A stretch of 64,000 nucleotides of DNA from a bacterium (lineage in GTDB: Bacteria; SAR324; JACQKK01): positions 502,681 through 566,680 of the forward strand of contig OZ251219.1 in NCBI GenBank assembly GCA_965240465.1, in the 5' to 3' direction. The position numbers and the translations under genes are program-made. Below are positions 10,999-64,000 of the stretch, in pieces (within the stretch, counting starts at the first letter, position 1; each line of letters begins with the position of its first letter). Under the pieces are notes generated by a model. It made no database searches. It was not told the origin of the DNA and was given only the letters and a program-made list of their open reading frames with translations.

Positions 10999-11025
10999 CC
11001 GCTCTCCCTATCTCCAACCCTAATG

Positions 11026-11148: not shown

Positions 11149-11228
11149 GCCTTCACCAGTCTCACCTTTAATGGTAAAACAGTATTAGCTATATTACCAT
11201 TTCTAATGTGTCTTTACCCTAGCCAAAT

Positions 11229-12346: not shown

Positions 12347-12357
12347 GCGGGATAGCC

Positions 12358-12561: not shown

Positions 12562-12583
12562 CTGGGTATTCGGATTCCTACCC

Positions 12584-12680
12584 ATTCACTTACCAATTCA
12601 TCCTCTCAGTTCATTCTCGCAATTCATCCTCTCAGTTCATCCTCTCAGTTCATCCTATCAATTCATTCTCGCAATTCACT
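12584..12680. repeat. 13-bp tandem repeat (TCATCCTCTCAGT / TCATTCTCGCAAT), about 7 copies
   Basis: Read directly. It is intergenic, upstream of rodA. Confidence 0.85.
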
Positions 12681-12717
12681 AAGCAGACAAATTCATTAAA
12701 GCGGAATTCGGAGTACC

Positions 12718-15216: not shown

Positions 15217-16283
15217 CACCAAATGATATACTAAAATCACTGCTTTTAAGGAAAGTCACAGTAGAAATTAACCAAGAATTAATTGACTATCTAGATATGA
15301 TAATAAAGGAAAGAGAAAACAGAATAGCAGTTATGACGATGACTATATGTCTTTTGCTGAAGAAGCATACTGATCCCTCGCAGAACATTACCCTACATCA
15401 GGCAAAAATGACAGGTGGGTTTAGTGCAAGGGGTTTTGATGAGAGATTTGTTACTCCTTTTTTGAAAGACAACAAATTCCCATACATGAAAAGCGGTAGT
15501 GGCGCTCTAACACGATCATTGGAGCATTCTATACCTTTCAATTTAGGTTATACTGGAGGAATAACACCAAAAGAATTAAAAAAGGCATTCCTAGAAATAG
15601 TGGATAGTGTACAAAATCGTGGAGCAATCTCTGAAGAGCTACTAATATATATCCTGAATAAATTAGTTATCTACAGAGACAGAGATACTAGTATTAAGTT
15701 GATAATACCTTCTAATCTATCAATTAAAGATATGGTAGCAAAATTACATCAACATTTTAATGCATGCAAACACGGAGCAAGACTACCACAATTAGCAATT
15801 TATGCAGTTTATACAATACTTACCAAAGAAATGGATAGATACAAACAACATACTTTATGTAAATTACAATCACATCAATCAGCAGACAGAAAGACACATT
15901 TTTTGGGCGACATACAAGTCAATGATGAAAACGGAATACCTTTTGAAGTAGTAGAGATAAAACATAAAATACAACTAACTGCCAATTTAGTAGAAGAGTG
16001 TTATGATAAATTCAAAACCTCAAAGATAAACACATTTTATCTGCTAAGCACTAATGAAGAGTTGAAAGAACCAGAAGAGATAAGCAATAAAATTATGTAC
16101 ATATATAAAACACACGGTTGCCAAATGATTGTGAATGGCGTATTCATTACATTAAAATACTATCTTAGATTACTTAGTGACCCCTATCTATTTCTTAACA
16201 AATATCTTGAATTAGTGGAACAAGATAGTAAGTATGAGGTAAAAGTTAATTGGCAAAATATGTGGGATTCTGTTAACGAATAA
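15213..16283 (+). CDS. Putative Type II restriction endonuclease partner (PD-(D/E)XK-like)
   Basis: Translationally coupled to the methyltransferase. GDIQVNDENGIPFEVVEIKHK fits a D...ExK core. No known family recognised. Confidence 0.45.
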   Translation: MTPNDILKSLLLRKVTVEINQELIDYLDMIIKERENRIAVMTMTICLLLKKHTDPSQNITLHQAKMTGGFSARGFDERFVTPFLKDNKFPYMKSGSGALTRSLEHSIPFNLGYTGGITPKELKKAFLEIVDSVQNRGAISEELLIYILNKLVIYRDRDTSIKLIIPSNLSIKDMVAKLHQHFNACKHGARLPQLAIYAVYTILTKEMDRYKQHTLCKLQSHQSADRKTHFLGDIQVNDENGIPFEVVEIKHKIQLTANLVEECYDKFKTSKINTFYLLSTNEELKEPEEISNKIMYIYKTHGCQMIVNGVFITLKYYLRLLSDPYLFLNKYLELVEQDSKYEVKVNWQNMWDSVNE

Positions 16284-49063: not shown

Positions 49064-51661
49064 CTAAAATACTTGATAGGGGTCCATATCCACCGTGATA
49101 CGGGAATTATGAGATAATTTTTGCGGAATAAACCGTAGCCATCGCTGGAGAATCTTAGGCTGAGGATGCTTGATGAGCATTAAAAAACGAAAGGAGCGTT
49201 TCAGCTTGGGGATATGAGCTGGTGCTGGTCCTAAGAGGATGGGAAAGGGCTGAACCCGAGGAATATTTTCCTTGAGAACCACGGATATCCGTTGTGCTAG
49301 TTGCTGAGCTAGCTGGGCTTGAGGATTTTCCACCCAAATAAGAGCTTGATGCGTGAAAGGAGGACTTTTGGCTATTTCCCTAAGTTGAAGTTCATGGGAG
49401 GCAAATTGCAAGAATTGATGCTTAAGAGCTCCCTGTAGACTGTAATGCTGAGGGTTATAGGTTTGAATAAGAGCTTTACCGGGTACTGAGCCTCTACCTG
49501 CCCGACCAGCCATTTGGGTAAGTAATTGAAAGGTTCTTTCTGGAGCCCGAAAATCAGGGAGATTAAGGGAAAGATCGGCAAGTAGCATGCCCACTAAGGT
49601 GACTTGAGGAAAATGATGCCCCTTAGCCAAAATTTGAGTACCAATGGCGATATCAAATTTATGCTGAGACATGGTTTGAAGTAATCGCTCCAATTCACCA
49701 CGACGGCGTAGTACATCGGAATCGATACGCAAGATACGGGCTTGGGGAAAAAGCATGGTCGCTTCTTCCTCAATGCGTTGGATGCCAATGCCAGTAAGCT
49801 GGATGTTCTCAGAGCCACAATGCTGACAATTAGAAGGCACCGCCCGCTTAAAACCACAACGATGACACAATAATATCGCCTCATTTTGATGCCAAGTTAA
49901 AGCTATCGTGCAATGATCACATAAGACCGAAGTCAGGCAGTCTTGGCAGAGACTCAAAGAAGCAAACCCGCGGCGATTGAGAAACAAAAGTACCTGCTGT
50001 TTCTTGGCTAAGGTGTGACGAATTTCTTCGGTCAGCTGGCGAGTAAAGCACCAGCTCCCAGGCTGGCGAGGAGCATGACGCAAATCCAATAGCTGTATGA
50101 AGGGCATTTGTTGTTGCTGAGCTCGTTCGGGCAAGATAAGCAATCGCCATTTTTTTTGCTGTACCGCATGCCAGCTCTCCATGCTAGGAGTAGCACTTCC
50201 CAATAACACCACTGCCCCATTATGACGAGCCCTTATCAGTACCGCATCCCGAGCATGATAACGAGGAGCTTCTTCCTGCTTGTAAGAACTATCATGCTCC
50301 TCATCCACCACCACCAACCCCAAATTGGCTAATGGCGCAAACACCGCACTACGAGCCCCTATCGCTACCAAAGCTTCACCTCTCCTCACCCTCAGCCAGC
50401 CCTCCAAACGCTCATTAGACCCCAAAGCACTATGAAGCAAAACTACCCGACCCCCAAAACGAGCCTGAAATCGCTTGACTAACTCCGTACTTAAGGCAAT
50501 CTCTGGTGCCAGCACCAAACAACTGCGTCGCTGCTCCAATGCCTCACGAACCGCATGCAAATAAACCTCCGTTTTGCCGCTTCCAGTCACTCCTTGTAAA
50601 AAAAAACACTGTGACTCCCCCTCCTTAAGTGCCTGCTGTACCTCACTAAAAGCTGCCTGCTGGGCTGGATTCAGAGTTAAAAACTCCTCTCTTCCGACAT
50701 CTTCATTATTCTCCCCAAATTGCCCCCCCTCCCCTGATTGCCCCCCCTCCCCTGATTGCCCCCCCTCCCCTGATTGCCCCCCCTCCCCTGATTGCCCCCC
50801 AAATTGCTTTGAGGCTTGCTGTTCAACCTGTTTGCTTTCCAGCAGCTTTTCTGCTTCCAACTGACGCAACACCAAAGCGGGATTTTTCACCACTGCCCGC
50901 ACTCGTGCCAAGGGGATTTCTCCCTCTTCCCGCAGCAAACGCAAGATGCGTTCTCGTTTGGTTTCCCGACGCGGATTGCGAGTACTAGCCGATTTCTGCT
51001 TATCCACCAAGTGTACCCAAGTTTCCAACTTAGGAGCACCTGCCCCTCCTGATACCCGATGGCATTTCTCCAAAATTTCCCCACGCACTAATCGTTGTAG
51101 CCAGCGATCGGCTTCTGCTCCTCCTTTTTGCTGCTGAAACCAACTAGCAGTAAATCTTTTTCCCGACCGCTGACGAACCCGTAACCGCTCTGCCAGCTCT
51201 TCATTCAATCCCGACATCAATTCTGTTCCCTGCCGAGCAGCCGAGCGGGAAAACCAATACTCCATTTCAAAACGCACCCCCAAACCCCCAGGAATGGCTG
51301 CCGTCAAGGCTTCTCCCCAGCTACAATGATAATACTTCGCCAGCCAGCCACAAAAATCCACCACCTCCTGAGGCAACAAAGCCTCCTTATCCACCACCCG
51401 ATGCAAATCACGCAAGCGTTCCCCAGAGATATCGCTAGCTTCTTTCAGCCGTACTACCACTCCCACCTTTAACCGAGGCCCAAAAGGCACTACCACCCGA
51501 GAACCTACCTCCACCGACTCGGTTAAGCGATAATCAAAGGTTTTTGGCAAGGGCAGATCAAATGCCACTTCCACCACTTGCTTATCGGTGGACTGTTTAT
51601 CTGTGGACTGTTTATCCGCGGGCTGTTTATCTGTGGACTGTTTATCGGTGGGTTGCATCAT
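49064..51661 (-). CDS. priA: Primosomal protein N' (replication restart helicase PriA) with repeat-encoded inserts
   Basis: Walker A is QGVTGSGKTEVYL and DEAH-type is VVDEEHDSSYKQ. The Cys4/Cys4 zinc region is CQDC..CDHC...CHRCG....CQHCGS. The N-terminus has (TDKQS)n and there is an internal (GGQSGE)4.5. Confidence 0.9.
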   Translation of the reverse strand: MMQPTDKQSTDKQPADKQSTDKQSTDKQVVEVAFDLPLPKTFDYRLTESVEVGSRVVVPFGPRLKVGVVVRLKEASDISGERLRDLHRVVDKEALLPQEVVDFCGWLAKYYHCSWGEALTAAIPGGLGVRFEMEYWFSRSAARQGTELMSGLNEELAERLRVRQRSGKRFTASWFQQQKGGAEADRWLQRLVRGEILEKCHRVSGGAGAPKLETWVHLVDKQKSASTRNPRRETKRERILRLLREEGEIPLARVRAVVKNPALVLRQLEAEKLLESKQVEQQASKQFGGQSGEGGQSGEGGQSGEGGQSGEGGQFGENNEDVGREEFLTLNPAQQAAFSEVQQALKEGESQCFFLQGVTGSGKTEVYLHAVREALEQRRSCLVLAPEIALSTELVKRFQARFGGRVVLLHSALGSNERLEGWLRVRRGEALVAIGARSAVFAPLANLGLVVVDEEHDSSYKQEEAPRYHARDAVLIRARHNGAVVLLGSATPSMESWHAVQQKKWRLLILPERAQQQQMPFIQLLDLRHAPRQPGSWCFTRQLTEEIRHTLAKKQQVLLFLNRRGFASLSLCQDCLTSVLCDHCTIALTWHQNEAILLCHRCGFKRAVPSNCQHCGSENIQLTGIGIQRIEEEATMLFPQARILRIDSDVLRRRGELERLLQTMSQHKFDIAIGTQILAKGHHFPQVTLVGMLLADLSLNLPDFRAPERTFQLLTQMAGRAGRGSVPGKALIQTYNPQHYSLQGALKHQFLQFASHELQLREIAKSPPFTHQALIWVENPQAQLAQQLAQRISVVLKENIPRVQPFPILLGPAPAHIPKLKRSFRFLMLIKHPQPKILQRWLRFIPQKLSHNSRITVDMDPYQVF

Positions 51662-51713
51662 TACCCACTGTATCTTAACTAGTACTAGATCTGGTGTTTA
51701 GGGATTGTTTAGC

Positions 51714-52310
51714 TTATTTTGCTTTTGCAGGAGGAGGTCGGGGGGAGGGTTTTTCCTCGGCTGGAGAACGCAACAATTTGTGTATCAGACCTTCCATTTT
51801 CTTAGCTTTTTTACTACCCTTATGTATCTCCCCTACCAAATTCAATTTCACCTGACCCTGTTTATCTATTAGATAGAAGCTAGGCCAATAATTATTATTC
51901 AAGGATTTCCAATAAGCATAATCATTATCTAGATAAACTGGCTGAGTTATCTTGAAGTGCTTGACTGCACTTTCCACATGTCCATACCTTTTTTCATAGG
52001 GAAACTCAGGAGTATGAACACTAATCACCCGCAAACCCTGCTTCTTATATCTATCTCTCACCTCGTGGACCCACGGGAAACTGCGAATACAATTAATTCA
52101 CACCGAAGTCCAAATCTCAACCAGAACTACCTGACCCCAAAAATTATCCCGTGATAAAGGCGGGCTATTAATCCAACTGGCCGCTTTCTGATGCTTAAAC
52201 TCGGGCATCTTCAGCTCCTTCTGCTCCTTTCGCTTACCCAGAGCATACCCAGTCACCAAAAAAATACCCAACAACAATGCTACCCCTGAACCCCATTGAA
52301 ATACTTTCAT
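51714..52310 (-). CDS. Periplasmic thioredoxin-like (DipZ C-terminal / redoxin-type) protein with in-frame TGA at the CxxC position: candidate selenoprotein (U-I-N-C), or else a pseudogene
   Basis: ORFs 52098..52310 and 51714..52061 are in the same frame, separated only by the TGA at 52098-52100. The joined sequence ...VVLVEIWTSV-U-INCIRSFPWVHEVRDRYKKQGLRVISVHTPEF...YWPSFYLID aligns with the FWTYSCINC...GVHTPEF...YWPA.YLID pattern of DipZ-like redoxins. Confidence 0.6.
52061..52077 (-). promoter_or_regulatory. SECIS-like hairpin downstream of the in-frame UGA
   Basis: The mRNA reads CCCGUG-GGUC-CACGAGG. This gives 6 bp with one bulged A and a GGUC apical loop, starting 21 nt 3' of the UGA. 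Confidence 0.35.
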
Positions 52311-52345
52311 TAATTACCTCATAATAACTAGTCCCGACCCAAAAC

Positions 52346-52460
52346 TCACCTGCCTACCTTCTCACCTGCCTCTGCTACTTACCTGCCTCTGCTACTTACC
52401 TGCCTCTGCTACTTACCTGCCTACCTTCTCACCTACCTACCTTCTCACCTGCTTGCCACC
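52346..52460. repeat. 17-bp tandem repeat (ACCTGCCTCTGCTACTT) x3 flanked by related CACCTGCCTACCTTCT units
   Basis: Read directly. It is intergenic. Confidence 0.85.
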
Positions 52461-52567
52461 CTCCTACCCTAACACACCCGCTCCCTAACACCCGCTCCCC
52501 CCCTTTGCTCCTCTAACACTCCCCCCCGCCCCCCGCCCCGCCAGACCCTCCTACACTCCTTATAATC

Positions 52568-53506
52568 ATGCATAAAATAAAACCCGAACACAAGATTCAA
52601 AGACCCAATCCCCACTCCAATCCCCACTCCACCCCCGCCTCTTCAACTGGCAGAAATGACCCATGCTGGTGCGGTAGTGGCAAAAAATACAAAAAATGCC
52701 ACCTAGTACCAAACCAAAACCCAGCTCCTTCCTTATCCTCTAATCTCCTAACACCCGCAAACCATCAGATCATCCTTAAAACACCCGCCCAAATCGCTAA
52801 CATTCGCAAATCCTGTCAACTGGTACATAACACCCTGAATATGCTCGAAAATCGCCTTGAAGCAGGAATCACTACCAACCAAATCAACCACTGGGTACAT
52901 CAATATACCCTTGATCATAACGCCCGTCCCGCCCCCCTTTATTATCGCGGTTATCCTAAATCGGTCTGTACTTCGGTCAATGAAGTAGTCTGCCACGGCA
53001 TCCCCAACGATGTACCCCTCCAGCCCGGTGATATAATCAATGTGGATGTAACTTCCATCCTTAATGACTACTATGGCGACTCCAGCCGCATGTTCTTCAT
53101 TGAACCCATCAGTAATCAAGCCCGCAATTTATGTGAAACTACCCTCCAATGCCTCAACCGAGCCATCGCAAAAGTCCAACCCAATGCCAAACTGGGCGAT
53201 ATCGGACACGCCATCCAATCCCATGCCGAAGCCCAAGGATATTCCGTAGTGAAAGATTTTGTCGGACACGGGGTAGGTATTTCCTTCCACGAAGAACCCA
53301 TGGTACCTCACTTCGGTCGCCCCAATACTGGAATGACCCTTAAAGCGGGCATGATCTTCACCATTGAACCCATGATCAACCTCGGCGACTGGGCAGTAGA
53401 AATCCTCTCCGACCAATGGACCGCGGTCACCAAAGATCGTTCCCTCTCAGCCCAATATGAACACACCATCTTAGTAACCCCAAAAGGACACGAAGTGCTA
53501 ACCTGA
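52568..53506 (+). CDS. map: Type I methionine aminopeptidase with an N-terminal SEC-C zinc motif
   Basis: NDPCWCGSGKKYKKCH is the SEC-C motif. The MAP blocks are VCHGIP, GDIINVDV...DSSRMF, GHG.G..FHE and FTIEPM. Confidence 0.9.
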   Translation: MHKIKPEHKIQRPNPHSNPHSTPASSTGRNDPCWCGSGKKYKKCHLVPNQNPAPSLSSNLLTPANHQIILKTPAQIANIRKSCQLVHNTLNMLENRLEAGITTNQINHWVHQYTLDHNARPAPLYYRGYPKSVCTSVNEVVCHGIPNDVPLQPGDIINVDVTSILNDYYGDSSRMFFIEPISNQARNLCETTLQCLNRAIAKVQPNAKLGDIGHAIQSHAEAQGYSVVKDFVGHGVGISFHEEPMVPHFGRPNTGMTLKAGMIFTIEPMINLGDWAVEILSDQWTAVTKDRSLSAQYEHTILVTPKGHEVLT

Positions 53507-56012: not shown

Positions 56013-57299
56013 ATGAAATACACCACTATTCCCCAAACCGATCCCCAAGTATTCGAAATCCTCCAAGCAGAAACTACCCGTCAGCGCGAAGGACTAGACC
56101 TTATCCCCTCTGAAAACTATGTCAGCCCAGCAGTTCTGGAGGTGATCGCCAATGTCTTCACCAATAAATACTCTGAAGGCTACCCTGGACATCGCTATTA
56201 TGGAGGGCAAACCTATTCCAACGAAATTGAAAGTCTCACCATTGAGCGGGCTAAAAACCTATTCTCGGCTGATCACGCCTCGGTTCAGCCCCTCTCTGGA
56301 GCCAATGCTAACTTGGCTGCCTACATAGCTTGGCTACAACCCGGCGATACAATCCTCGCTATGGATCTCTCCCACGGTGGACATCTGACCCATGGCTCTC
56401 CAGTTACTTTTTCCGCGGCTATCTATCGCTTCATCCACTACAAAATGAAAGATGTATCCACTGGCGAAATAGATTATGACGCTCTCAGAGACCAAGCCCT
56501 AAAAGAAAAACCCAAACTCATTCTCGCCGGGCTTTCCGCCTACCCCAGAACCCTGAACTATAAAAGAATTGCCGAAATTGCCCAAGAAGTAGGGGCCCTG
56601 GCTATGGCTGATATGGCTCATCTTTCTGGGCTCATCGCAGCTAAGGTACTTCCCAATCCCCTAAACTACGGCTTTAACTTGATGACTACCACTACCCACA
56701 AATCCCTACGCGGACCTAGAGGAGCCATCATCCTAACCAAGGGAATAGTATCCAATCCCCTTAAAAAACCAGAAAAAACCTTGGAAAATATCCCTACCCT
56801 GATTGATCGGGCTATTTTCCCAGGACTACAGGGAGGACCACACATGCATAAAATCGCGGCTATCTGCGTCGCCCTTAAAGAAGCTGCCAGCCCAGATTTT
56901 CAAAAATACGCCCAGCAAATACTCAAAAATGCCCAAGCCCTGTCTGCTGCCCTCCAAAAACTCGGTGCTAAACTCATCACCAATGGCACCGATAATCACC
57001 TCATGCTCATCAATACCATGGAAAGCTTCGGCAAAAATGGCGACCAAATACAAACCGAACTGGATGAAGTCAATATTACCCTCAACAAAAACTCCATCCC
57101 CGATGATCCCCTACCTCCTTTCAAATCCTCCGGAGCTCGCCTTGGAACTCCAGCCGCCACCACCAGAGGCATGAAAGAACCCGAAATGGCTAAAATCGCC
57201 AACTGGATCATACACATTGCCAAAAATGGCCTTCGCGAAGCTCCTCAGGTCAAAAAAGAAGTACGGGAACTCTGCCTTAAATTTCCTCCTCCTCAATAG
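56013..57299 (+). CDS. glyA: Serine hydroxymethyltransferase
   Basis: LIPSENY.SP.V, YSEGYPG.RYYGG and the PLP site TTTTHKSLRGPRG are present. Confidence 0.95.
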   Translation: MKYTTIPQTDPQVFEILQAETTRQREGLDLIPSENYVSPAVLEVIANVFTNKYSEGYPGHRYYGGQTYSNEIESLTIERAKNLFSADHASVQPLSGANANLAAYIAWLQPGDTILAMDLSHGGHLTHGSPVTFSAAIYRFIHYKMKDVSTGEIDYDALRDQALKEKPKLILAGLSAYPRTLNYKRIAEIAQEVGALAMADMAHLSGLIAAKVLPNPLNYGFNLMTTTTHKSLRGPRGAIILTKGIVSNPLKKPEKTLENIPTLIDRAIFPGLQGGPHMHKIAAICVALKEAASPDFQKYAQQILKNAQALSAALQKLGAKLITNGTDNHLMLINTMESFGKNGDQIQTELDEVNITLNKNSIPDDPLPPFKSSGARLGTPAATTRGMKEPEMAKIANWIIHIAKNGLREAPQVKKEVRELCLKFPPPQ

Positions 57300-57327
57300 C
57301 TCGGCAACGGTATGAAAGTCACCCCAC

Positions 57328-58503
57328 ATGCAACCCACCCTGCGACCTACCCTGCGACCTACCCTGCAATCCAACCGACCTACCCTGCGACCTACCCTGC
57401 AATCCAACCTGCGACCCAACACCGTGTTTTGTCGCGATAATTTAGACGTCCTAGGCGGCATTAACAGCAACTGCATTGACCTGATCTATCTTGATCCCCC
57501 TTTTAACAAAGGTAAGCAGTTTCACGCTCCTGCGGGCAGTGAAGCGGAGGGAGCTGATTTTAATGACATATGGAGGGAAGAATCCGTCAAGGATGAATGG
57601 CATGGGGAAATCAAATTCAAAAAACCTAAACTCTATAAGTACTTAGATGCCGTAGGAGAGATAGGCAACCGTTCTACTAAGTATTATCTCATTTACATGG
57701 CGGTGCGTTTGTTTGAAATATACCGCATCTTAAAAGAGACTGGGAATCTGTATCTGCACTGCGATACCACCATGTCGCATTATTTGAAGATACTGCTGGA
57801 CTGCATTTTTGGAATAAATAATTTCAAAAATGAAATTATCTGGAGACGAGATGCCGCTGGCAAAGGAGGCAAGCGAGTATCTCATCAATGGCCTCGTTCT
57901 AGCGATGTACTATTGCTCTTTTACAAAGGAGATTCCTCTTTTTTTCATCAACAATACACCCCATTGGGAGAAGCACAGCAAAAAGTCTATCGCTATCAAG
58001 ACGAGGATGGTCGTTTTTATAAGGCAGTCCAGTTAGGCAATTATTCCAAAACGTCCATTCAACAAATGACCAAAGAAGGCCTGATACATACTTCTGGCAC
58101 TGGAAAAATGTATAAAAAATACTACCTGGATAATGCCAAAAGTACCATTGATTGCATCTGGGATAATATCTACGGCTTTGGGGTAAGAACTGCCTCCAAA
58201 GAGCGTACGGGATATCCAACCCAAAAACCCTTGGCTCTTTTGGAACGCATTATTCAGGCGTCCTGTCCCGTAGGTGGTCTGGTGCTGGATCCTTTCTGCG
58301 GATGTGCTACCACTTGCATTGCAGCCTCACGTTTGGGGCGTAAATGGATCGGGATTGACATCGCCCCCAAAACCTTTGATTTGGTAAAAACCCGCCTGCA
58401 AAACGAAGTCCCTCCAGAACTATTAACAAGCAAAACCAGCTACCGAACGGACATCCCCGTACGCACGGATATGGATCATAAAAGAAATGCTACCAGAGGA
58501 TAA
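57328..58503 (+). CDS. Beta-class N4/N6 DNA methyltransferase (DPPF), C-terminal HNH tail lost by frameshift
   Basis: Motif IV is IYLDPPFNKG and motif I is VLDPFCGCATTCIAA. It ends ...YRTDIPVRTDMDHKRNATRG*. An in-frame GTG at 57424 (VFCRDNLDVL) is a plausible real start downstream of the repeat. Confidence 0.8.
   Translation: MQPTLRPTLRPTLQSNRPTLRPTLQSNLRPNTVFCRDNLDVLGGINSNCIDLIYLDPPFNKGKQFHAPAGSEAEGADFNDIWREESVKDEWHGEIKFKKPKLYKYLDAVGEIGNRSTKYYLIYMAVRLFEIYRILKETGNLYLHCDTTMSHYLKILLDCIFGINNFKNEIIWRRDAAGKGGKRVSHQWPRSSDVLLLFYKGDSSFFHQQYTPLGEAQQKVYRYQDEDGRFYKAVQLGNYSKTSIQQMTKEGLIHTSGTGKMYKKYYLDNAKSTIDCIWDNIYGFGVRTASKERTGYPTQKPLALLERIIQASCPVGGLVLDPFCGCATTCIAASRLGRKWIGIDIAPKTFDLVKTRLQNEVPPELLTSKTSYRTDIPVRTDMDHKRNATRG
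57334..57418. repeat. 12-nt-based tandem repeat (CCTGCGACCTAC / CCTGCAATCCAA) overlapping the annotated 5' end of the methyltransferase ORF
   Basis: Read directly. It encodes (PTLR)n(PTLQSN)n. Confidence 0.85.
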
Positions 58504-58603
58504 GGTTTTTCTTTATGGTAGACAGGATAATAGCTGCGATGAGTGTAAATTAAGATTAGATAGAGGTCATCTTGAAGTTGACCATATTTTAACCCTAATG
58601 TGA
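58499..58603 (+). pseudogene. Frameshifted and truncated HNH-nuclease tail of the upstream methyltransferase
   Basis: The +1 frame reads DKVFLYGRQDNSCDECKLRLDRGHLEVDHILTLM*. This is the K..LYG.Q.G.C..C.........VDHI start of the HNH tail seen on many such methyltransferases. It is cut off before the N..LLC..CN half, where AT-rich DNA begins. Confidence 0.55.
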
Positions 58604-58614
58604 CATGGTGCTAT

Positions 58615-59163
58615 ATGTTAATATCATATGTAAAGACATGTGAAAAAGTTGCTAATGTTGTACTAAATACAGGTACATCAAAAGCAAAAATAGTATTTGA
58701 TTTTATTATAGATAAAAAGAGAGGAGGAAAGCAGGGTGGTATTGTTTATTTATTTGTTGTTAATAAGGTAATATATAAAATAGGATACACAAGATCTAAG
58801 GATGGTATCAAGGGGGCATTAACTGCATATCAAGGGGGGATAGGGGGTAGTCCAAGTTTAAGAACATATGGTATACATATTCTACTTCATAAAGAGTTAA
58901 AGGAAAATAGTATCGTGGAAGTATATGCTATTTTTAGTAACACTATGCACGGAAAAGTAAAAGGATTATTCAAAACGTATGACAATATACAAATATCACC
59001 TTCACATGAAATGGAAGATATATGTAAAAAGGATTATATCGCGGTTGAAAAAAAATACCCTAAGTGGAATTTTAAGGAAAATGGAGAAGATTTTCCTAAT
59101 TACATACAAGTTATGCATGCCAAGCAGCTGGTTCATCAGAAATCAAAGAGAAATCGCAAGTAG
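58615..59163 (+). CDS. GIY-YIG nuclease-domain protein, putative Type II restriction endonuclease
   Basis: GGIVYLFVVNKVIYKIGYTR matches GIY-(x9-11)-YIG, with later acidic residues. It is about 183 aa, AT-rich, and convergent with the Dam-like methylase, overlapping its 3' end by 21 nt. Confidence 0.55.
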   Translation: MLISYVKTCEKVANVVLNTGTSKAKIVFDFIIDKKRGGKQGGIVYLFVVNKVIYKIGYTRSKDGIKGALTAYQGGIGGSPSLRTYGIHILLHKELKENSIVEVYAIFSNTMHGKVKGLFKTYDNIQISPSHEMEDICKKDYIAVEKKYPKWNFKENGEDFPNYIQVMHAKQLVHQKSKRNRK

Positions 59164-60078
59164 TTCATGCGATTTCTTTATATGAGAATCGGCATTATAT
59201 ACATCCCTATTGTTTAATACTTTTGATATTCTTGTTTCACCTTGTCCCATTGTATATTGCCAAGATGGATAAAATATGTCACATTTCTTATAGTACTCTT
59301 CGCTTTTTTTGCAATTGTTATACGATAATATAAAGCCGCTTTTGTGATCCATTAATAGGTCTCTCAATAGTTCATGGTTAAATTTAGTATGATGAATAGG
59401 TCTATTGCGTTCAGGATAAATACCATTAAACATCTTACTTGTTTCATCATCTGTTTTAAGAAAATAAGGTGGGTCGCAATAAAAGAAATCCTTGGGGTAT
59501 CTTTTAAATAATTCCTCAAATGATTCGCATGTAATTTTTATACTTGATTCAAAATCTCGTACTCGTTCAATCATTTTTCCGTATTTTCTATCATCTAGAT
59601 AAACACTTGATGCCCATCCAATAAAAGAAGGTCCATAAGATAAATTATGATTATAGAAAAAGTACACTGCTTGTTCTAATTTAGATAATTTTAATTCTCC
59701 TTTTCTCCATTTTTTGACTATTGCTTTTATTCTTAGATATTCCTCTTTTGTTGGTTTCAGTTTTTTTAATTCTTTATAAAGCACATGTGGTTCATTAATT
59801 TGGTATTGCCAATAATTAACTAATACAGGATTAATTTCACATGCAATAATTTCAATCCCTAATTTTTGCTCCATTGCAATTTCAATACTGCCACCCCCAA
59901 AAAAAGGAGATATTACTCGCTTGACAGCTGGTAGATGCTCAATTACATGCCCCACTGCCAAACTTTTACCACCCCCATATCTTATGGGGGATAGTGCCAG
60001 TCGTTTATATTTACGTTTTTCTGAGTGCAGGCTTCCTAGCAGGTCCTGTATACTCATTTTTGGTATTTCCTTAAACAT
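59143..60078 (-). CDS. Dam-family (alpha-class, D12) N6-adenine DNA methyltransferase
   Basis: PIRYGGGKS, motif I SPFFGGGSIE and motif IV FFYCDPPYFL are present. Confidence 0.8.
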   Translation of the reverse strand: MFKEIPKMSIQDLLGSLHSEKRKYKRLALSPIRYGGGKSLAVGHVIEHLPAVKRVISPFFGGGSIEIAMEQKLGIEIIACEINPVLVNYWQYQINEPHVLYKELKKLKPTKEEYLRIKAIVKKWRKGELKLSKLEQAVYFFYNHNLSYGPSFIGWASSVYLDDRKYGKMIERVRDFESSIKITCESFEELFKRYPKDFFYCDPPYFLKTDDETSKMFNGIYPERNRPIHHTKFNHELLRDLLMDHKSGFILSYNNCKKSEEYYKKCDIFYPSWQYTMGQGETRISKVLNNRDVYNADSHIKKSHELLAISL

Positions 60079-60202
60079 TAAACTAACAATTCCTTATGAT
60101 TTTTGCAAGAGTCAACATTTTTAACGAGAATTATAAACTAACCTAGCAAGAATGTTTGCATTATCATGTATATCATCAATTTGGTGGTGATTATCAGTAG
60201 CT

Positions 60203-63200
60203 CTAGAGCAAGGCTTTTAGGGCTTTTCCCGTATGGCTAGCTGGGTTTTGGCAGATTTCTTGGGGAGTTCCCATCGCCACGATTTCACCACCGAGTTCTC
60301 CCTCTTCGGGACCTAAATCTAGAATGAAATCCGCGGTTTTCAGAACCTCCAGATTGTGTTCTATCACCACCACCGAGTGTCCTTGGTCCACGATGCGGTG
60401 CAGAGCCGCCAGCAATTTGCAAACATCCTCTGAGTGTAAGCCAGTAGTGGGCTCATCAAATAGATAAAGAGTGGGTAGGGAGCGGAGCTTATTTAGCTCG
60501 GCGGCTAGTTTGAGTCGCTGAGCCTCCCCGCCAGAAAGAGTGTTGGCAGCTTGTCCTAGCTGGATGTACCCCAGTCCCACCTCAGCCAGAGTTTCCAACC
60601 CGCGTTTGATTTGGGGCTGATTGGCAAATAGCGAGCGAGCGGGCTGGACTTCCAGCTGCAATATATCGGCAATGCTGTATCCTTTGAAGGTTATTTGCAG
60701 GGTTTGTTGATTATAACGCTTTCCCTTGCATTGTGGGCATTTAGTCCAAACATCAGCCAGAAAATGCATCTCAATATGCAGGAAGCCGCGTCCCTCGCAA
60801 GTGGTACAGCGTCCTGAGGGCATATTGAAGCTAAACCGCCCTGCCGAGTAACCCCTCGCCCGAGCTTGGGGCATGGCGGCCATCAAGGTGCGTAGGTGGG
60901 ACATTAACCCCATATAAGTGGCTGGATTAGACCTCGGGGTTCTGCCGATGGGAGTTTGGTCAACCACCAGCAAGCGTTCAATGGATTGAAAACCACTCAG
61001 GCTACCCAGAACCGCAGGAAGACTAGCTTGGCTGGTTCCTAAATGATTCTCCAACAAGGGTCTTAGAACCTGATGAATGAGGGTACTTTTGCCACTCCCA
61101 GAAACACCGCTCACTGCCACTAAGGACTGCAAGGGTATTTTGGCTTGAACGTTCTTTAGATTATGCAAGGAGACATTTTTAAGCTGCAGGAAATTCCGAA
61201 CGGGTCGGATTTTGGCGGGTAGTGGAATCATTCGGCGACCACTGAGATATTGACCCGTAAGAGAACTCGCCTTAGCCGCAACCTGACGGGGAGTGCCTTG
61301 GGCAACTACTTGCCCTCCATAGCGACCGGCCGCGGGACCGATATCTATCAGGTGGTCGGCAAATTTAATCACTTGAGGATCATGTTCCACCACGCAGATG
61401 GTATTGCCACGCCGCTTGAGCTGATCCAAAGTATTCAGCAGCTGTTGGGTGTCTCTGGGATGAAGACCGATGGTGGGTTCATCCAGTACATAAAGTACTC
61501 CCACCAACTGAGCCCCCAATTGAGATGCCAAGCGAATACGCTGAGCCTCACCACCAGAAAGGGTGGAAGACCGACGATGAAGATGAAGATGCCCCAAACC
61601 TACATTTTCCAAAAAAATAAGCCGCGAATAGATCTCTTGGCGAGGCTGCTTAGCGATCAAGGCTTCGTTCTCAGATAGCTGCCATTGTTCAAGTTGCTGC
61701 TTGGCTTGGCTGACCGTTTGCTGGCAAAACTCAGCAATGGATGTTTTCTGCCAGCGTACATTGCGGGCTAGTGGCATTAATCGGGATCCTTGGCAGGCTG
61801 GACAAGCAACTAAGTTCAGCAATTCTGCTACATCCCGCTTATGAGACTCATCACTTTGGGCTAGCTTTTGACTAAGCAGGGTGTTAATCCCTGGTAGCTG
61901 CCCATCTCCTTCCATCAGCCAAAGGCGTTCCTGAGGGAGCAAATTTTTGGCAGCCTTGGAAATATAAATCCGATGGCGGCGGGCAATGCGTCTAGCTCCC
62001 CTTTGAATGTTGCTGTGAGGATTGTTGAACCAAGCCGTTATCGCACTGGGGCGTAATGCCCCCTTAAAGAGAGGTTTCTTAGGGTTGATAACCCAACGCT
62101 CCCAATCCAGCTGAGTAGTATTTCCCAGCCCCTCACAAGTGGGACAAGCCCCATGGGGCGAATTAAAACTGAATTGTCGTGGAGATAACTCGGGCCAAGT
62201 TATGCCATCTTTTAGACAAGTTGGATGCTCGCTAAATAAGAGTACCTCAGGGCTGGATTTTTGGATTGCATCAGGGGAGAAATCATCCCCCTTGACCAAG
62301 CTCACTAAGCCACCGTTTTGTTTATAGGCGGTGGTAATTGATTCATCCAAGCGTTGCCGTTGGGAAGCATCACACTTCAGGCGGTCAATAACGATGTGTA
62401 GCTGGGATAGCTGATTCGTTCTTTGGGGCTGATATTGCTCCAGTTCCCACATTTGAGGCTTAGGAGCTGATTGCCAAAGGCGAGTAAAGCCCTCTGCCTG
62501 ATAAGTATCCAAGCGTTTTTTGAGGGCTGCTTTACCGATAATCTCAGGTTGGGCTGGGATAGCCATGGGAGTACATACCAGTAGGTGTTTCTTTGAAACA
62601 CCGCTCCCAGAAACACCGCTCCCAGAAACACCGCTCCCAGAAACACCGCTTTCAGCAGATTGCAACAGTAGCAGCTGAGTGAGCTGTGCAGCTGGAAAAG
62701 CCTTGAGCGGAGCTTGACAGTGGGGGCAGTGAGGTTGTCCTAGGCGAGCATAGATGATACGCAGATAGTCATAAATTTCGGTAGCCGTAGCCACAGTAGA
62801 ACGCGGAGTACGAGTACTATGCTTTTGATCAATTGCAATGGCAGGGCTCAATCCCTCAATGGAGCGGACTCTGGGTTTATCCATTCTGCCGAGGAAACGA
62901 CGGGCATAAGTAGAAAGTGATTCCACATAACGAGCTTGACCTTCTGCAAATAGGGTATCCAACGCCAAGCTGCTTTTGCCACAGCCAGAAACTCCCGTGA
63001 GGACGGTCAGCTTATTTTTAGGGAGTCGTACATCAATGTTTTGGAGGTTGTTGTTTTCCGCGCCCCAGACTAGTATATCGCGGGAAGGCTGGAAGGCTTT
63101 CTTAGCTAACAGATTACCATCCGCTGGATGTTTGTCTGGTTTCCAGTTTCCTAAGGGAGATTTTAGTACTTCCTTGAGGGCCAGACCAGTCAACGAGTTT

Positions 63201-64000
63201 TTATGTTCGGCAATGACCTCAGGAGGACCTTCTGCCACCAATTTACCGCCTTGGTCTCCGCCATGGGGACCTAAATCAAGGATCCAATCGGCACTATTTA
63301 GTACGTCTAGATTGTGCTCAATCACCACCACGCTGTGTCCTGCCTCTACCAGACCATGCAGGCATGAGAGCAGGTTAAAGACATCCTTGCCATGCAAACC
63401 AGTAGTAGGCTCATCCAGTAGATATAGGGTGTGTAAGCCCGGCTTCTTGCGGAGCTCTGAGGCTAATTTAAGCCGTTGGGCTTCGCCTCCAGATAAGGTG
63501 GTACTGGGTTGTCCTAGTACCAGATATCCTAATCCTACTTCTACCAAAGAATTCAGGATCCGCTTGGCTTCGGGTACCGATGAAAAAAATTGCTGGGCTT
63601 CATCAACAGTCATGCCCAAGACAGATTGAATATGGTGCTGCTTATAGCGTACCTGTAGGGTTTCTTCATTAAAGCGACGCCCCTGACAAGCCTCACAAAC
63701 CACTTCTACATTGCTTAAAAACTGCATTTCAATCACCCGTACTCCCCCTCCTTTACAGATCTCGCAGCGACCGCCCTTTACATTAAAACTAAAGCGTCCC
63801 GCCTTATACCCTCGCATGCGTGCCAAGCGGGTACGAGTGAACAAATCCCTAATAACATCCATCAATTTGGTGTAGGTAGCCGCATTGCTACGGGGAGTGC
63901 GTCCGATCGGGGTTTGGCTGATTTCAATCACCTTATTAAGCTCTTGCAATCCCTTTATCTGCGACACCAATGATAAGGGTTGGCGATTCAAATAGGCTCG
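60203..64000 (-). CDS. uvrA: Tandem-fused (single-chain double) UvrA-like excinuclease ATPase; 5' end lies outside the window
   Basis: The ORF is open to the window edge. The visible part contains the C-terminal half of one UvrA unit (..IGRTPRSNAATYT.., CxxC...CxxC, LSGGEAQRLKLA, LLDEPTTGLH). A linker of about 30 aa follows, then a complete second unit starting NNLQNIDVRLP...GVSGCGKSSLALDTLFAEGQARYVESLSTYARRFLG and running to its own end. Confidence 0.85.
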   Translation of the reverse strand, partial: RAYLNRQPLSLVSQIKGLQELNKVIEISQTPIGRTPRSNAATYTKLMDVIRDLFTRTRLARMRGYKAGRFSFNVKGGRCEICKGGGVRVIEMQFLSNVEVVCEACQGRRFNEETLQVRYKQHHIQSVLGMTVDEAQQFFSSVPEAKRILNSLVEVGLGYLVLGQPSTTLSGGEAQRLKLASELRKKPGLHTLYLLDEPTTGLHGKDVFNLLSCLHGLVEAGHSVVVIEHNLDVLNSADWILDLGPHGGDQGGKLVAEGPPEVIAEHKNSLTGLALKEVLKSPLGNWKPDKHPADGNLLAKKAFQPSRDILVWGAENNNLQNIDVRLPKNKLTVLTGVSGCGKSSLALDTLFAEGQARYVESLSTYARRFLGRMDKPRVRSIEGLSPAIAIDQKHSTRTPRSTVATATEIYDYLRIIYARLGQPHCPHCQAPLKAFPAAQLTQLLLLQSAESGVSGSGVSGSGVSGSGVSKKHLLVCTPMAIPAQPEIIGKAALKKRLDTYQAEGFTRLWQSAPKPQMWELEQYQPQRTNQLSQLHIVIDRLKCDASQRQRLDESITTAYKQNGGLVSLVKGDDFSPDAIQKSSPEVLLFSEHPTCLKDGITWPELSPRQFSFNSPHGACPTCEGLGNTTQLDWERWVINPKKPLFKGALRPSAITAWFNNPHSNIQRGARRIARRHRIYISKAAKNLLPQERLWLMEGDGQLPGINTLLSQKLAQSDESHKRDVAELLNLVACPACQGSRLMPLARNVRWQKTSIAEFCQQTVSQAKQQLEQWQLSENEALIAKQPRQEIYSRLIFLENVGLGHLHLHRRSSTLSGGEAQRIRLASQLGAQLVGVLYVLDEPTIGLHPRDTQQLLNTLDQLKRRGNTICVVEHDPQVIKFADHLIDIGPAAGRYGGQVVAQGTPRQVAAKASSLTGQYLSGRRMIPLPAKIRPVRNFLQLKNVSLHNLKNVQAKIPLQSLVAVSGVSGSGKSTLIHQVLRPLLENHLGTSQASLPAVLGSLSGFQSIERLLVVDQTPIGRTPRSNPATYMGLMSHLRTLMAAMPQARARGYSAGRFSFNMPSGRCTTCEGRGFLHIEMHFLADVWTKCPQCKGKRYNQQTLQITFKGYSIADILQLEVQPARSLFANQPQIKRGLETLAEVGLGYIQLGQAANTLSGGEAQRLKLAAELNKLRSLPTLYLFDEPTTGLHSEDVCKLLAALHRIVDQGHSVVVIEHNLEVLKTADFILDLGPEEGELGGEIVAMGTPQEICQNPASHTGKALKALL

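What the first reader, a model, noticed from the sequence alone, without database searches (positions are those of the whole stretch)
57328..60130. Nested restriction-modification locus: a methyltransferase-HNH fusion decayed by frameshift and truncation at the edge of an AT-rich Dam-like methylase / GIY-YIG nuclease cassette
The DPPF methyltransferase ends ...RTDMDHKRNATRG*. In the +1 frame the sequence continues DKVFLYGRQDNSCDECKLRLDRGHLEVDHILTLM*, which is the first half of the HNH tail commonly fused to this methyltransferase type. Removing one G in AGAGGATAAG restores a continuous reading frame.

The HNH stops after VDHI at about 58600. At that point composition switches to AT-rich DNA carrying a GIY-YIG protein (58615..59163) and a convergent Dam-family methylase (59143..60078), whose 3' ends overlap by 21 nt.

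This looks like one mobile Type II R-M unit inserted into, and inactivating, the nuclease part of a resident methylase-nuclease fusion. A small GIY-YIG REase with an adenine methylase is reminiscent of Hpy188I-type systems, but the target is unknown.
Basis: partly seen in the sequence, partly recalled or inferred. Interest (0 to 1): 0.65.

Follow-up and report, generated by a model that had tools for sequence, protein, structure and literature searches.

The report
Restriction-modification pair beside a broken methylase-nuclease
An apparently intact, horizontally acquired restriction enzyme and methylase gene pair of the known Hpy188I type sits where the nuclease tail of a neighbouring methylase has been frameshifted and cut off, which is an ordinary kind of rearrangement among bacterial defence genes.

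Summary
MT1 (57328-58503) is an intact beta-class N6/N4 DNA methyltransferase. Its close homologues almost all carry a C-terminal HNH nuclease, including three intact copies that appear to be in the same genome. Here the HNH survives only as a 31-codon remnant in the +1 frame (58496-58588). The frame breaks at 58495/58496, about 50 codons are missing, and no trace of them lies downstream.

Next comes 1.6 kb of 29-34% GC DNA (flanking genes 48-50%). It holds R (58615-59163) and a convergent D12-class adenine methylase, M2 (59143-60078), which overlap by 21 nt.

R belongs to the Hpy188I GIY-YIG restriction enzyme family. It fits the R.HpyAORF481P branch described in 2008, which pairs with alpha-class D12 methylases. 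All catalytic residues are present, and the predicted structure matches Hpy188I and T4 endonuclease II. The same R+M pair occurs in three other unrelated contexts, in all three gene orders.

The causal story is only partly supported. There is no target duplication and no 3' remnant. The GC break coincides with the frameshift, not with 58600. The whole 2.9-kb block is absent from the nearest relatives, where SHMT and UvrA are about 30 nt apart.

Verdict: a new member of a known kind, of modest interest.

The parts
57328..58503 (+). MT1: beta-class N6/N4 DNA methyltransferase. Motif IV (DPPF) lies before motif I (LDPFCGCATT). The body is full length but the ORF stops early because of the frameshift. 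It probably still works as a solitary methylase.
   Evidence: PF01555 at E=1.3e-38. PADLOC MTase_II at 1.5e-49. It aligns without internal breaks to homologues that share its target-recognition domain (TRD).
57329..57420 (+). In-frame tandem repeats at the 5' end of MT1, including a perfect 33-nt duplication at 57343-57409. They add about 25 residues (PTLRPTLQSN...) that homologues lack.
   Evidence: TRF, the repeat finder D1 and alignment A1.
58495..58496 (+). Frameshift point. T389 (ACC, 58492-58494) is followed by a single A, and then GAG GAT AAG (E-D-K) in the +1 frame.
   Evidence: The nearest homologues read T-K-E-D-K here.
58496..58588 (+). HNH remnant. It covers the linker and first part of the HNH domain, through the first CxxC pair and the DH of the catalytic motif. 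The GG..NLQLLC..CN..KG part is missing. After DHI it runs LTLM and then stops (58601-58603).
   Evidence: Alignment A1 and tblastn. Intact paralogues carry a complete Pfam HNH, 47 of 47 positions. The remnant itself has no Pfam hit and only a weak PHROG HNH hit at 0.027.
58615..59163 (+). R: a 182-aa GIY-YIG Type II restriction endonuclease candidate of the Hpy188I family, R.HpyAORF481P branch. It appears intact.
   Evidence: PDB Hpy188I at E=1.9e-4 with the single sequence and 1.1e-9 with the family profile; T4 EndoII at 3.2e-6. The AF2 model has pLDDT 97.6. Foldseek gives Hpy188I at 1e-7 and EndoII at TM 0.70. Y45, K55, Y72, R83, E134 and N152 are conserved. PADLOC REase_II at 2.8e-7. The start codon agrees with homologues P0122 and P0123.
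59143..60078 (-). M2: a 311-aa alpha-class (D12) N6-adenine DNA methyltransferase. Motif I (FFGGGS) lies before motif IV (DPPY). It appears intact and is the presumed cognate methylase of R.
   Evidence: PF02086 at E=5e-29, covering 253 of 253 model positions. PADLOC MTase_II PDLC03281 at 1.5e-91, full length. PDB DpnM at 1.4e-4. Homologues at 69-71% identity sit next to R homologues in L001 and L002.
59143..59163 (.). The 21-nt overlap of the convergent 3' ends of R and M2.
   Evidence: The same convergent layout, with a 14-nt overlap, is seen in L002.
60079..60202 (-). AT-rich spacer (29% GC) upstream of M2, reaching the stop codon of UvrA. This is the right edge of the acquired segment and presumably holds the M2 promoter.
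   Evidence: No HNH remnant is found in any frame. No promoter-like site lies on the M2 strand in this spacer.
56013..57299 (+). Left flank: serine hydroxymethyltransferase (SHMT).
   Evidence: PF00464 at 1.5e-150. Synteny with L064 and L065.
60203..63991 (-). Right flank: 3' part of a giant UvrA-like gene that runs off the window. Its C-terminus is intact.

Best explanation
The 2.9 kb between the convergent SHMT and UvrA genes is a small variable defence-gene islet built in at least two layers.

**Layer 1: the methylase (MT1).** MT1 is a beta-class, probably adenine-specific (DPPF) methylase. It comes from a family that normally ends in an HNH nuclease. The methylase body is intact and most likely still methylates DNA as a solitary enzyme. 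The HNH tail is dead. A frameshift at 58495/58496 disconnects it, and everything after the catalytic Asp-His (58588) is gone.

**Layer 2: the R-M pair.** Layer 2 is a roughly 1.6-kb AT-rich segment, running from about 58500-58600 to about 60200, acquired by horizontal transfer. It carries a complete Type II restriction-modification pair of the Hpy188I family, HpyAORF481P branch.

- M2, an alpha-class D12 enzyme, would methylate the N6 of an adenine in a short, still unknown site.
- R would cut that site when it is unmethylated, probably as a dimer, using the one-metal GIY-YIG mechanism solved for Hpy188I.
- By alignment, the residue roles in R are:
  - Tyr45 is the general base.
  - Lys55 takes the place of the YIG tyrosine.
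  - Tyr72 acts as the proton shuttle.
  - Arg83, at the 'alternative' position, binds phosphate.
  - Glu134 holds the metal.

**How the two layers met.** The arrival of layer 2, or a deletion associated with it, removed the 3' half of the HNH-coding sequence. One restriction function was in effect swapped for another.

**Shown:** gene anatomy, family memberships, conserved catalytic residues, fold, composition break, recurrence of the R+M pair elsewhere, and absence of the block from relatives.

**Inferred:** enzymatic activity, the recognition site, that the cassette's arrival caused the truncation, and the order of events.
For: **HNH is the norm for this family**
- Most of the 120 best MT1 homologues carry PF01844/PF14279.
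- Three intact copies (P0003, P0007, P0008) are recorded on a contig of the same length, 1,599,138 bp, as the window's own proteins.
- These copies have complete HNH domains.
- Alignment A1 places the window remnant in register up to DHI and shows about 50 residues missing.

**R is a GIY-YIG restriction enzyme**
- It matches Hpy188I and T4 EndoII by sequence profile.
- It matches them by predicted structure.
- Y45, K55, G57 and Y72 are invariant across 71 family members. E134 and N152 are 97-99% conserved. Arg occurs at position 83 in 31 of them and at 84 in 39.
- This reproduces the K-for-Y substitution and the migrated Arg described for the R.HpyAORF481P branch in PMC2630997.
- R hits the cyanophage S-PM2 protein listed in that branch at 2e-19.

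**R and M2 travel together**
- L001 has them in M-then-R tandem order, at 58% and 71% identity.
- L002 has them convergent, at 59% and 69% identity.
- Cyanophage Syn30 has them in R-then-M tandem order, at 39% and 36% identity.
- The pair is also AT-rich relative to its flanks in L001.

**Composition and synteny**
- The cassette is 29-32% GC, MT1 is 44% and the flanking genes are 48-50%.
- In L065 (SHMT 75% identical), SHMT and UvrA are convergent and about 30 nt apart. In L064 (71%), an ammonium transporter fills the gap. Neither has MT1, R or M2.
- MT1's catalytic parts are 73-81% identical to the same-genome paralogues. This argues that MT1 has a history in this genome that is separate from the cassette's.
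Against: - No target-site duplication, terminal inverted repeat or tRNA marks an insertion.
- No 3' HNH remnant lies beyond the cassette, so a clean insertion is excluded.
- The GC drop starts at the frameshift (about 58500), 90 nt before HNH homology ends.
- The remnant is more diverged from the paralogues (38-48% identity) than they are from each other (59-69%). The remnant may therefore have arrived with the cassette, or may have been dead long before it came.
- No closer relative of the genome was available to show a pre-insertion allele.
- No promoter-like site lies upstream of R or M2 on their strands, and the scan found no more sites than shuffled sequence gives.
- Activity and specificity are untested. 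The specificity of the HpyAORF481P branch was not found in the accessible literature.
Confidence: 0.72

Rival explanations
1. Decay came first. The HNH tail was already dead, through frameshift and then drift or deletion, before the cassette landed in or next to the dead tail. A later deletion may have trimmed the junction. On this view the cassette did not inactivate anything.
For: - The remnant is unusually diverged: 38-48% identity to the paralogues, against 59-69% among them, while the methylase body is as conserved as theirs.
- It has low GC (33.6%), which is consistent with AT-biased drift under relaxed selection.
- HNH-less homologues exist, so loss of the tail is tolerated.
Against: - The remnant is only 29-36 aligned residues, so the excess divergence is weakly significant at best.
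- It still keeps every invariant residue of that stretch and has no internal stop.
- HNH homology ends 27 nt before R starts (58588 against 58615), which is what a single event would also give.
Confidence: 0.3
2. The HNH remnant came in with the cassette. The 'frameshift' at 58495/58496 is really a recombination junction between the resident methylase gene and a foreign methylase-HNH fragment attached to the R-M2 unit, formed by homology-assisted illegitimate recombination.
For: - The GC break (about 47% to 33.6%) coincides with the frame break rather than with the end of HNH homology.
- No 107-nt window inside MT1 is as AT-rich as the remnant (minimum 34.6%).
- Identity to same-genome paralogues falls from 73-81% to 38-48% exactly there.
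Against: - The homologous cassette in L002 has no HNH fragment upstream of R.
- L001 and Syn30 have other neighbours.
- In L063 the HNH part of an intact homologue is also lower in GC than its methylase part (37.5% against 42.2%). A GC step at this position is therefore partly native to the family.
Confidence: 0.15
3. The whole 2.9-kb block (MT1 with its broken tail, R and M2) entered the SHMT/UvrA spacer as one pre-assembled composite island.
For: - The block is entirely absent from the two nearest relatives. In L065 the two flanking genes are about 30 nt apart.
- Methylase-HNH genes are themselves low-GC single-gene islands elsewhere (L063).
Against: - MT1 (44% GC) and the cassette (32%) differ clearly in composition.
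- MT1's N- and C-terminal parts are 73-81% identical to three paralogues that appear to lie in the same genome, and much less similar to anything else in a search of 5.8 billion protein clusters. MT1 was therefore shaped within this lineage.
- The relatives are distant (SHMT 71-75% identity), so their empty site says little about timing.
Confidence: 0.12
4. The frameshift is an assembly or consensus error, and MT1 really reads through to ...DHILTLM*.
For: - Related contigs carry long-read-assembler style names. One low-coverage relative (L065, '2x') has its UvrA broken into three ORFs.
- Read data cannot be checked here.
Against: - The site (ACCAGAGGAT) is not a homopolymer.
- Long neighbouring ORFs in the window, including more than 1262 aa of UvrA, are uninterrupted.
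- Even if the frame is repaired, the HNH is truncated after its first third, so the conclusion of a dead nuclease does not change.
Confidence: 0.1
5. R is not a restriction enzyme. It could be a free-standing GIY-YIG homing or selfish nuclease, or an inactive relic, with M2 a solitary methylase.
For: - GIY-YIG domains also occur in homing endonucleases.
- More distant M2 homologues (47-55% identity) in L066-L070 have no R-family neighbour.
- No activity data exist.
Against: - R's nearest solved relative is a bona fide Type II enzyme.
- R lacks the extra DNA-binding domain of GIY-YIG homing enzymes (182 aa, a single domain).
- R is paired with a co-diverging D12 methylase in four independent contexts.
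- In the published family survey, 19 of 25 members had a methylase neighbour.
Confidence: 0.05

Closest known systems
R.HpyAORF481P branch of the R.Hpy188I family of GIY-YIG Type II restriction enzymes (Kaminska et al. 2008, PMC2630997). Members include H. pylori HpyAORF481P, Hpy99ORF433P, C. upsaliensis CupORF237P and the cyanophage S-PM2 protein.
   Same: - Size is about 180 aa.
- Lys replaces the YIG tyrosine.
- Arg sits at the alternative loop position rather than in the helix.
- The Cys pair is absent.
- The partner is an alpha-class D12 (PF02086) methylase.
- R hits the S-PM2 member directly at 2e-19.
   Different: - Only 29-40% identical to the phage members.
- The nearest relatives anywhere are 58-60% identical.
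- The host is an uncultivated, small-genome (1.6 Mb) bacterium.
- The gene order is convergent with overlapping 3' ends.
- The recognition sequence is unknown.
Hpy188I (TCN^GA) restriction enzyme, PDB 3OQG/3OR3 (Sokolowska et al. 2010, PMC3045582)
   Same: - GIY-YIG fold.
- By alignment, Tyr63, Lys73, Tyr88 and Glu149 of Hpy188I correspond to Y45, K55, Y72 and E134 of R.
- It is the best structural and sequence match in the PDB.
   Different: - About 28% identity.
- The Arg84 position is Gly in R, with Arg83 in the loop instead.
- Hpy188I pairs with a gamma-class methylase, whereas R pairs with an alpha-class one.
- TCNGA specificity cannot be transferred to R.
Beta-class N6/N4 methyltransferases with a C-terminal HNH domain (PF01555 + PF01844/PF14279). 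This is a large, mostly uncharacterised family. Sister architectures carry Mrr_cat or T5orf172 tails instead.
   Same: - MT1's methylase body is 50-60% identical overall to family members, and 73-81% identical to the lineage's own paralogues in the catalytic parts.
- The linker and first third of the HNH are recognisable.
   Different: - The HNH is out of frame and lacks about 60% of the domain.
- MT1 has an N-terminal repeat extension.
- I found no experimental description of what the HNH tail does in this family. Calling it the 'restriction half' is an inference.
Insertion of one R-M unit into another, and R-M-linked rearrangements. Examples are C. upsaliensis CupORF237P and H. pylori cases cited in PMC2630997, and the survey by Furuta, Abe and Kobayashi 2010 (PMC2853133).
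   Same: One R-M gene set abuts and disrupts a gene of another, inside a variable spot between conserved genes.
   Different: - No long target duplication and no mobility gene are present.
- The missing 3' part shows replacement or deletion rather than a clean insertion.

Membership tests
R.Hpy188I family (GIY-YIG Type II REase), R.HpyAORF481P branch | Significant sequence similarity to Hpy188I or to family members | tested here: met
   phmmer against the PDB gives Hpy188I at E=1.9e-4. A 71-member family profile gives 1.1e-9. tblastn to the S-PM2 branch member gives 2e-19. PADLOC REase_II gives 2.8e-7.
R.Hpy188I family (GIY-YIG Type II REase), R.HpyAORF481P branch | GIY-YIG fold | tested here: met
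   The AF2 model has pLDDT 97.6 and pTM 0.91. Foldseek gives Hpy188I at E=1e-7 with probability 1.00. It gives T4 EndoII at TM 0.54 (query) and 0.70-0.72 (target), and UvrC GIY-YIG domains further down the list.
R.Hpy188I family (GIY-YIG Type II REase), R.HpyAORF481P branch | Active-site set: GIY Tyr, Lys in place of the YIG Tyr, second Tyr, metal-binding Glu, Asn/Gln | tested here: met
   Y45, K55 and Y72 are invariant. E134 is 99% and N152 97% conserved across 71 members, and all are present in the window protein. Correspondence to Y63/K73/Y88/E149/Q169 is by the HMMER alignment and the paper.
R.Hpy188I family (GIY-YIG Type II REase), R.HpyAORF481P branch | Branch markers: Arg at the alternative position (104/105 of Hpy188I) rather than at 84, and no Cys90/Cys101 pair | tested here: met
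   The helix position is Gly67 in R. R83 lies in the loop (..GSPSLRTYG..). Across the family Arg occurs at position 83 in 31 members and at 84 in 39. There is no Cys in that segment.
R.Hpy188I family (GIY-YIG Type II REase), R.HpyAORF481P branch | Adjacent alpha-class (PF02086) methyltransferase | tested here: met
   M2 is at 59143-60078 and overlaps R by 21 nt. The same pairing is seen in L001, L002 and Syn30.
R.Hpy188I family (GIY-YIG Type II REase), R.HpyAORF481P branch | Site-specific cleavage blocked by cognate methylation | not testable with these tools
   Needs enzyme assays or methylome data.
D12-class (alpha) N6-adenine DNA methyltransferase | Pfam MethyltransfD12 above the gathering score, with motif I (FxGxG) N-terminal to motif IV (DPPY) | tested here: met
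   102.2 bits against a cut-off of 22, covering model positions 1-253 of 253. SPFFGGGS precedes YCDPPYF in the translation.
Dam (GATC) orthologue | Score above the NCBIfam Dam subfamily or equivalog cut-offs | tested here: not met
   TIGR00571 gives 68.9 bits against 114.85. PRK10904 gives 26.1 against 441. M2 is D12-class but not a Dam orthologue.
Beta-class N6/N4 methyltransferase fused to a C-terminal HNH nuclease | N6_N4_Mtase domain with motif IV before motif I | tested here: met
   PF01555 at 133.6 bits. DPPFN at residues 56-60 and LDPFCGCATT at residues 320-329.
Beta-class N6/N4 methyltransferase fused to a C-terminal HNH nuclease | Complete in-frame HNH domain (both CxxC pairs and the H...N...N/H motif) | tested here: not met
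   Only the first CxxC pair and the DH survive, in the +1 frame. About 50 residues are missing. The remnant has no Pfam HNH hit, whereas the paralogues match 47 of 47 positions.
Discrete mobile element (transposon, integrative island) | Target-site duplication, terminal repeats or tRNA at the borders | tested here: not met
   No convincing border repeats and no tRNA in the window. The ORFs in the block are accounted for by MT1, R and M2, plus short overlapping ORFs that were not examined.

The most novel reading that the evidence does not exclude
The R-M2 unit may not have landed here by accident. It may spread preferentially into the HNH-coding tails of rival methylase-nuclease genes. It could carry a short HNH fragment as a homology arm, or its GIY-YIG nuclease could provoke breaks there. 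Its arrival would then disarm a competing restriction function while keeping that competitor's methylase. The coincidence of the frame break, the GC break and the identity drop at 58495-58500 would be the recombination scar.
Probability: 0.05. Interest if true: 0.7.

Novelty: new member of a known kind. Interest (0 to 1): 0.3.

Why it matters
This locus adds a divergent and apparently intact member to the small Hpy188I/HpyAORF481P family of GIY-YIG restriction enzymes. Its nearest relatives are 58-60% identical. I found no published recognition sequence for that branch.

It also shows how defence genes turn over in a small-genome, uncultivated bacterium. A short spacer between two convergent housekeeping genes has collected a methylase-nuclease fusion and then a second R-M system. 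The first system lost its nuclease in the process but kept its methylase, which is one route to 'orphan' methylases.

None of this changes current understanding. Its practical value is as a candidate for specificity determination and as one documented case of replacement of one R-M function by another.

Tried and rejected
- **Border repeats.** I searched 57200-60300 for direct and inverted repeats (seed 7) and found nothing convincing at the borders.
- **Missing HNH half.** I searched all six frames of 58560-60320 with tblastn (word size 2, E up to 100) and by direct translation. Only noise came back.
- **DNA of the same-genome paralogues.** Look-ups of the window's own protein P0001 and of paralogues P0003 and P0007 returned 'not on record'. 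The paralogues' HNH composition therefore could not be compared at the DNA level.
- **GTDB genome scan with SHMT.** It returned 60 loci, the best 60-67% identical (Saccharibacteria and other MAGs). None had MT1, R or M2, or a comparable UvrA, next to SHMT.
- **Viral scans.** The scan with the R family alignment failed because no stretch was conserved enough. The scan with M2 found nothing.
- **Metagenome scan with M2.** It gave five loci at 47-55% identity. None had an R-family neighbour, even when searched with the R family HMM.
- **Guessing the recognition site from palindrome avoidance.** The genome strongly avoids TCGA, GCGC, GGCC and CCGG. Relatives without the cassette share the avoidance, so it cannot be assigned to R-M2.
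- **Literature on HP0481/HpyAORF481P specificity.** No assignment was found.
- **Literature on the function of methylase-HNH fusions.** Nothing specific was found.
- **Promoter and terminator scan.** The counts were no higher than in shuffled sequence, and no site lies upstream of R or M2 on their strands.
- **tRNA scan.** No tRNA gene was found in the window.

Full report
**1. What is in the sequence**

ORF listing and translation confirm the four pieces.

- **MT1** (57328-58503, + strand, 391 aa). It matches Pfam N6_N4_Mtase at E=1.3e-38. Motif IV (DPPF) comes before motif I (LDPFCGCATT), so it is a beta-class enzyme.
- **HNH remnant.** The +1 frame reads ...PEDKVFLYGRQDNSCDECKLRLDRGHLEVDHILTLM*, ending at 58603.
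- **R** (58615-59163, + strand, 182 aa). The ATG at 58615 matches the start of its closest homologues.
- **M2** (59143-60078, - strand, 311 aa). It matches Pfam MethyltransfD12 at E=5e-29 over the whole model. R and M2 overlap by 21 nt at their 3' ends.

The flanks are SHMT (56013-57299, + strand) and the 3' part of a giant UvrA-like gene (60203-63991, - strand).

GC content by feature:

| Feature | GC |
|---|---|
| SHMT | 48% |
| MT1 core | 44% |
| HNH remnant | 33.6% |
| R | 31.6% |
| M2 | 32.1% |
| Spacer 60079-60202 | 29% |
| UvrA | 50% |

**2. The methylase and its broken tail**

A search of 5.8 billion protein clusters found that most of the 120 best MT1 homologues (42-60% identity) carry HNH domains, PF01844 or PF14279. 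Three of them (P0003, P0007, P0008) are recorded on a contig of exactly the same length, 1,599,138 bp, as the window's own proteins. I take them to be paralogues in the same genome. Each has a complete HNH domain, 47 of 47 Pfam positions.

In the alignment, the window sequence follows the family through the linker, the first CxxC pair and the Asp-His of the catalytic motif. It keeps every residue that is invariant in that stretch. It then stops, and about 50 residues (GG..NLQLLC..CN..KG..) are absent.

The frame breaks between T389 (ACC, 58492-58494) and GAG GAT AAG (58496-58504). The four nearest homologues read T-K-E-D-K here, and the DNA of one of them (L063) reads ACG AAA GAA GAC AAA. The simplest repair is therefore to restore two bases of a Lys codon.

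No trace of the missing HNH half exists between 58590 and 60320 in any frame.

The methylase body has no internal defects. It aligns without gaps to homologues that share its target-recognition domain. MT1 should therefore still work as a solitary methylase. A few homologues naturally lack any tail. Others carry Mrr-type or T5orf172-type tails instead. This supports, but does not prove, the idea that the tail is the nuclease partner of the methylase.

**3. The nuclease R**

Pfam and NCBIfam give no hit for R. Other evidence identifies it:

- PHROGs gives an 'endonuclease' family at 1.6e-10.
- A direct search of PDB sequences gives Hpy188I at E=1.9e-4.
- An exhaustive HMMER search found 228 family representatives.
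- A profile of 71 full-length members hits Hpy188I at 1.1e-9 and T4 endonuclease II at 3.2e-6.
- An AlphaFold2 model built with that alignment is very confident (pLDDT 97.6).
- Foldseek returns Hpy188I (E=1e-7) and T4 EndoII (target TM 0.70), followed by UvrC GIY-YIG domains.

Column statistics show that Y45, K55, G57 and Y72 are invariant. E134 and N152 are 97-99% conserved. Arg occurs at position 83 in 31 members and at 84 in 39.

This is the pattern Kaminska et al. (PMC2630997) described for the R.HpyAORF481P branch of the Hpy188I family:

- Lys replaces the YIG tyrosine.
- The phosphate-binding Arg has moved from the helix (Arg84 of Hpy188I) to a loop (positions 104/105).
- The Cys pair is absent.
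- The partner is an alpha-class D12 methylase.

The Hpy188I crystal structures give the roles of the equivalent residues (PMC3045582). R also matches the cyanophage S-PM2 protein that the paper lists in that branch, at 2e-19.

**4. The methylase M2 and the unit**

M2 has FFGGGS before DPPY, which makes it alpha-class. It matches a specific PADLOC Type II methylase model end to end at 1.5e-91. It falls below NCBI's Dam cut-offs, so GATC specificity cannot be assumed.

The R+M2 pair recurs in other places:

| Context | Gene order | R identity | M2 identity |
|---|---|---|---|
| L001, a 1.88-Mb contig | M then R, tandem | 58% | 71% |
| L002 | Convergent, overlapping 3' ends | 59% | 69% |
| Cyanophage Syn30 | R then M, tandem | 39% | 36% |

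The flanking genes differ in each case. In L001 the pair is again AT-rich relative to its surroundings. More distant M2 homologues (47-55% identity) have no R-family neighbour. This agrees with the partner exchange noted in the 2008 paper.

**5. Is it an insertion?**

The best available outgroups are two contigs whose SHMT is 75% (L065) and 71% (L064) identical. Both share the gene order TGT (L064 only) - glycosyltransferase - SHMT, followed by the convergent giant UvrA.

- In L065 the two stop codons are about 30 nt apart.
- In L064 an ammonium transporter lies between them.
- Neither has MT1, R or M2.

The whole 2.9-kb block is therefore lineage-specific filling of a variable spacer.

Within the block there is evidence for two layers. 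MT1 and the cassette differ in GC (44% against 32%). MT1's N- and C-terminal catalytic parts are 73-81% identical to the same-genome paralogues, while its target-recognition domain is unrelated to theirs. MT1 therefore has a history in this lineage.

The junction is not clean:

- There is no duplication, inverted repeat or tRNA at or near the borders.
- The HNH 3' half is deleted rather than displaced.
- The GC drop starts at the frameshift (about 58500), not where HNH homology ends (58588).
- The remnant is more diverged from the paralogues (38-48% identity) than they are from each other (59-69%).

Three scenarios remain open:

1. The cassette arrived with a deletion.
2. The tail decayed first and the cassette came later.
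3. The remnant came in with the cassette and the 'frameshift' is a recombination scar.

Against the third scenario, L002 has no HNH fragment upstream of R. An intact homologue elsewhere (L063) also has a lower-GC HNH part, 37.5% against 42.2%.

**6. Comparison with what is known**

All parts belong to described families. Insertion of one R-M system into another is already documented, for example CupORF237P in C. upsaliensis and cases in H. pylori, and in the survey PMC2853133 listed.

What is new is only the particular member. It is 58-60% identical to its nearest relatives, it is in an uncultivated small-genome bacterium, and its specificity is unknown. I rate it a new member of a known kind, with interest 0.3.

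**7. Limits**

No enzymatic or methylome data are available. No close relative of the genome was found. The reads behind the frameshift cannot be inspected.

Noticed in passing
window 3200-14000, 16300-57300 and 60200-64000 (native DNA, 55.6 kb): Short palindromes are avoided to an extreme degree: TCGA 10 observed against 149 expected, GCGC 9 against 140, GGCC 47 against 205, CCGG 30 against 153, CCNGG 60 against 148, GATC 166 against 270, and TTTAAA 0 against 15. The nearest relatives share part of the pattern: L065 has TCGA 3 against 18.5, GGCC 6 against 43 and GCGC 5 against 25.5, and L064 has TCGA 11 against 33. This points to long-standing, heavy pressure from 4-bp-cutting restriction enzymes in this lineage.
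   Followed up: partly
window 344-3119: A second AT-rich island (29-30% GC). It holds a 600-aa gamma-class N6_Mtase (PF02384, motif NPPY) followed by a 326-aa specificity-subunit-like protein (PF01420). This looks like part of a Type I or Type IIG-like R-M system.
   Followed up: partly
window 14236-16283: A third AT-rich island (31-34% GC). It holds a 326-aa N6_N4 methylase with an SPPY motif, which suggests N4-cytosine specificity. A 356-aa ORF overlaps it and has no hit in Pfam or PADLOC. It is a candidate for a novel cognate restriction enzyme.
   Followed up: partly
window 57328-58503 compared with P0003, P0007, P0008 (apparently the same genome): MT1 is a mosaic. Its N- and C-terminal catalytic parts are 73-81% identical to three paralogues. 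Its central target-recognition domain is only 16-21% identical to theirs, yet 54-62% identical to proteins from Chloroflexota and Bacteroidota MAGs and from unnamed metagenome contigs. This suggests swapping of recognition domains within a four-member methylase-HNH family in a 1.6-Mb genome.
   Followed up: partly
window 57329-57420: In-frame tandem repeats sit at the 5' end of MT1, including a perfect 33-nt duplication at 57343-57409. They lengthen the N-terminus by about 25 residues (PTLRPTLQSN...). The position of the homologues' start Met is CTG here. Similar short in-frame repeats occur in UvrA (62595-62650, SGVSG...) and at 50711-52631.
   Followed up: no
window 60203-63991; L064 12744-18566: The UvrA-like gene is about 1940 aa in the relative L064, roughly twice the length of a normal UvrA. 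It shows internal self-similarity, consistent with a tandem double UvrA.
   Followed up: no
L063 1480-2697: An intact methylase-HNH homologue (P0004) sits as a single-gene, low-GC island (38-45% GC) between genes of 51-60% GC in another organism. Methylase-HNH genes therefore seem to move as single-gene units.
   Followed up: partly
whole window: The window's SHMT is at most 75% identical to anything in the 5.8-billion-cluster protein database. In the GTDB species-representative genome scan the best matches were 60-67% identical and mostly Saccharibacteria MAGs. The organism is therefore from a poorly sampled lineage. No tRNA gene lies in the 64 kb.
   Followed up: no
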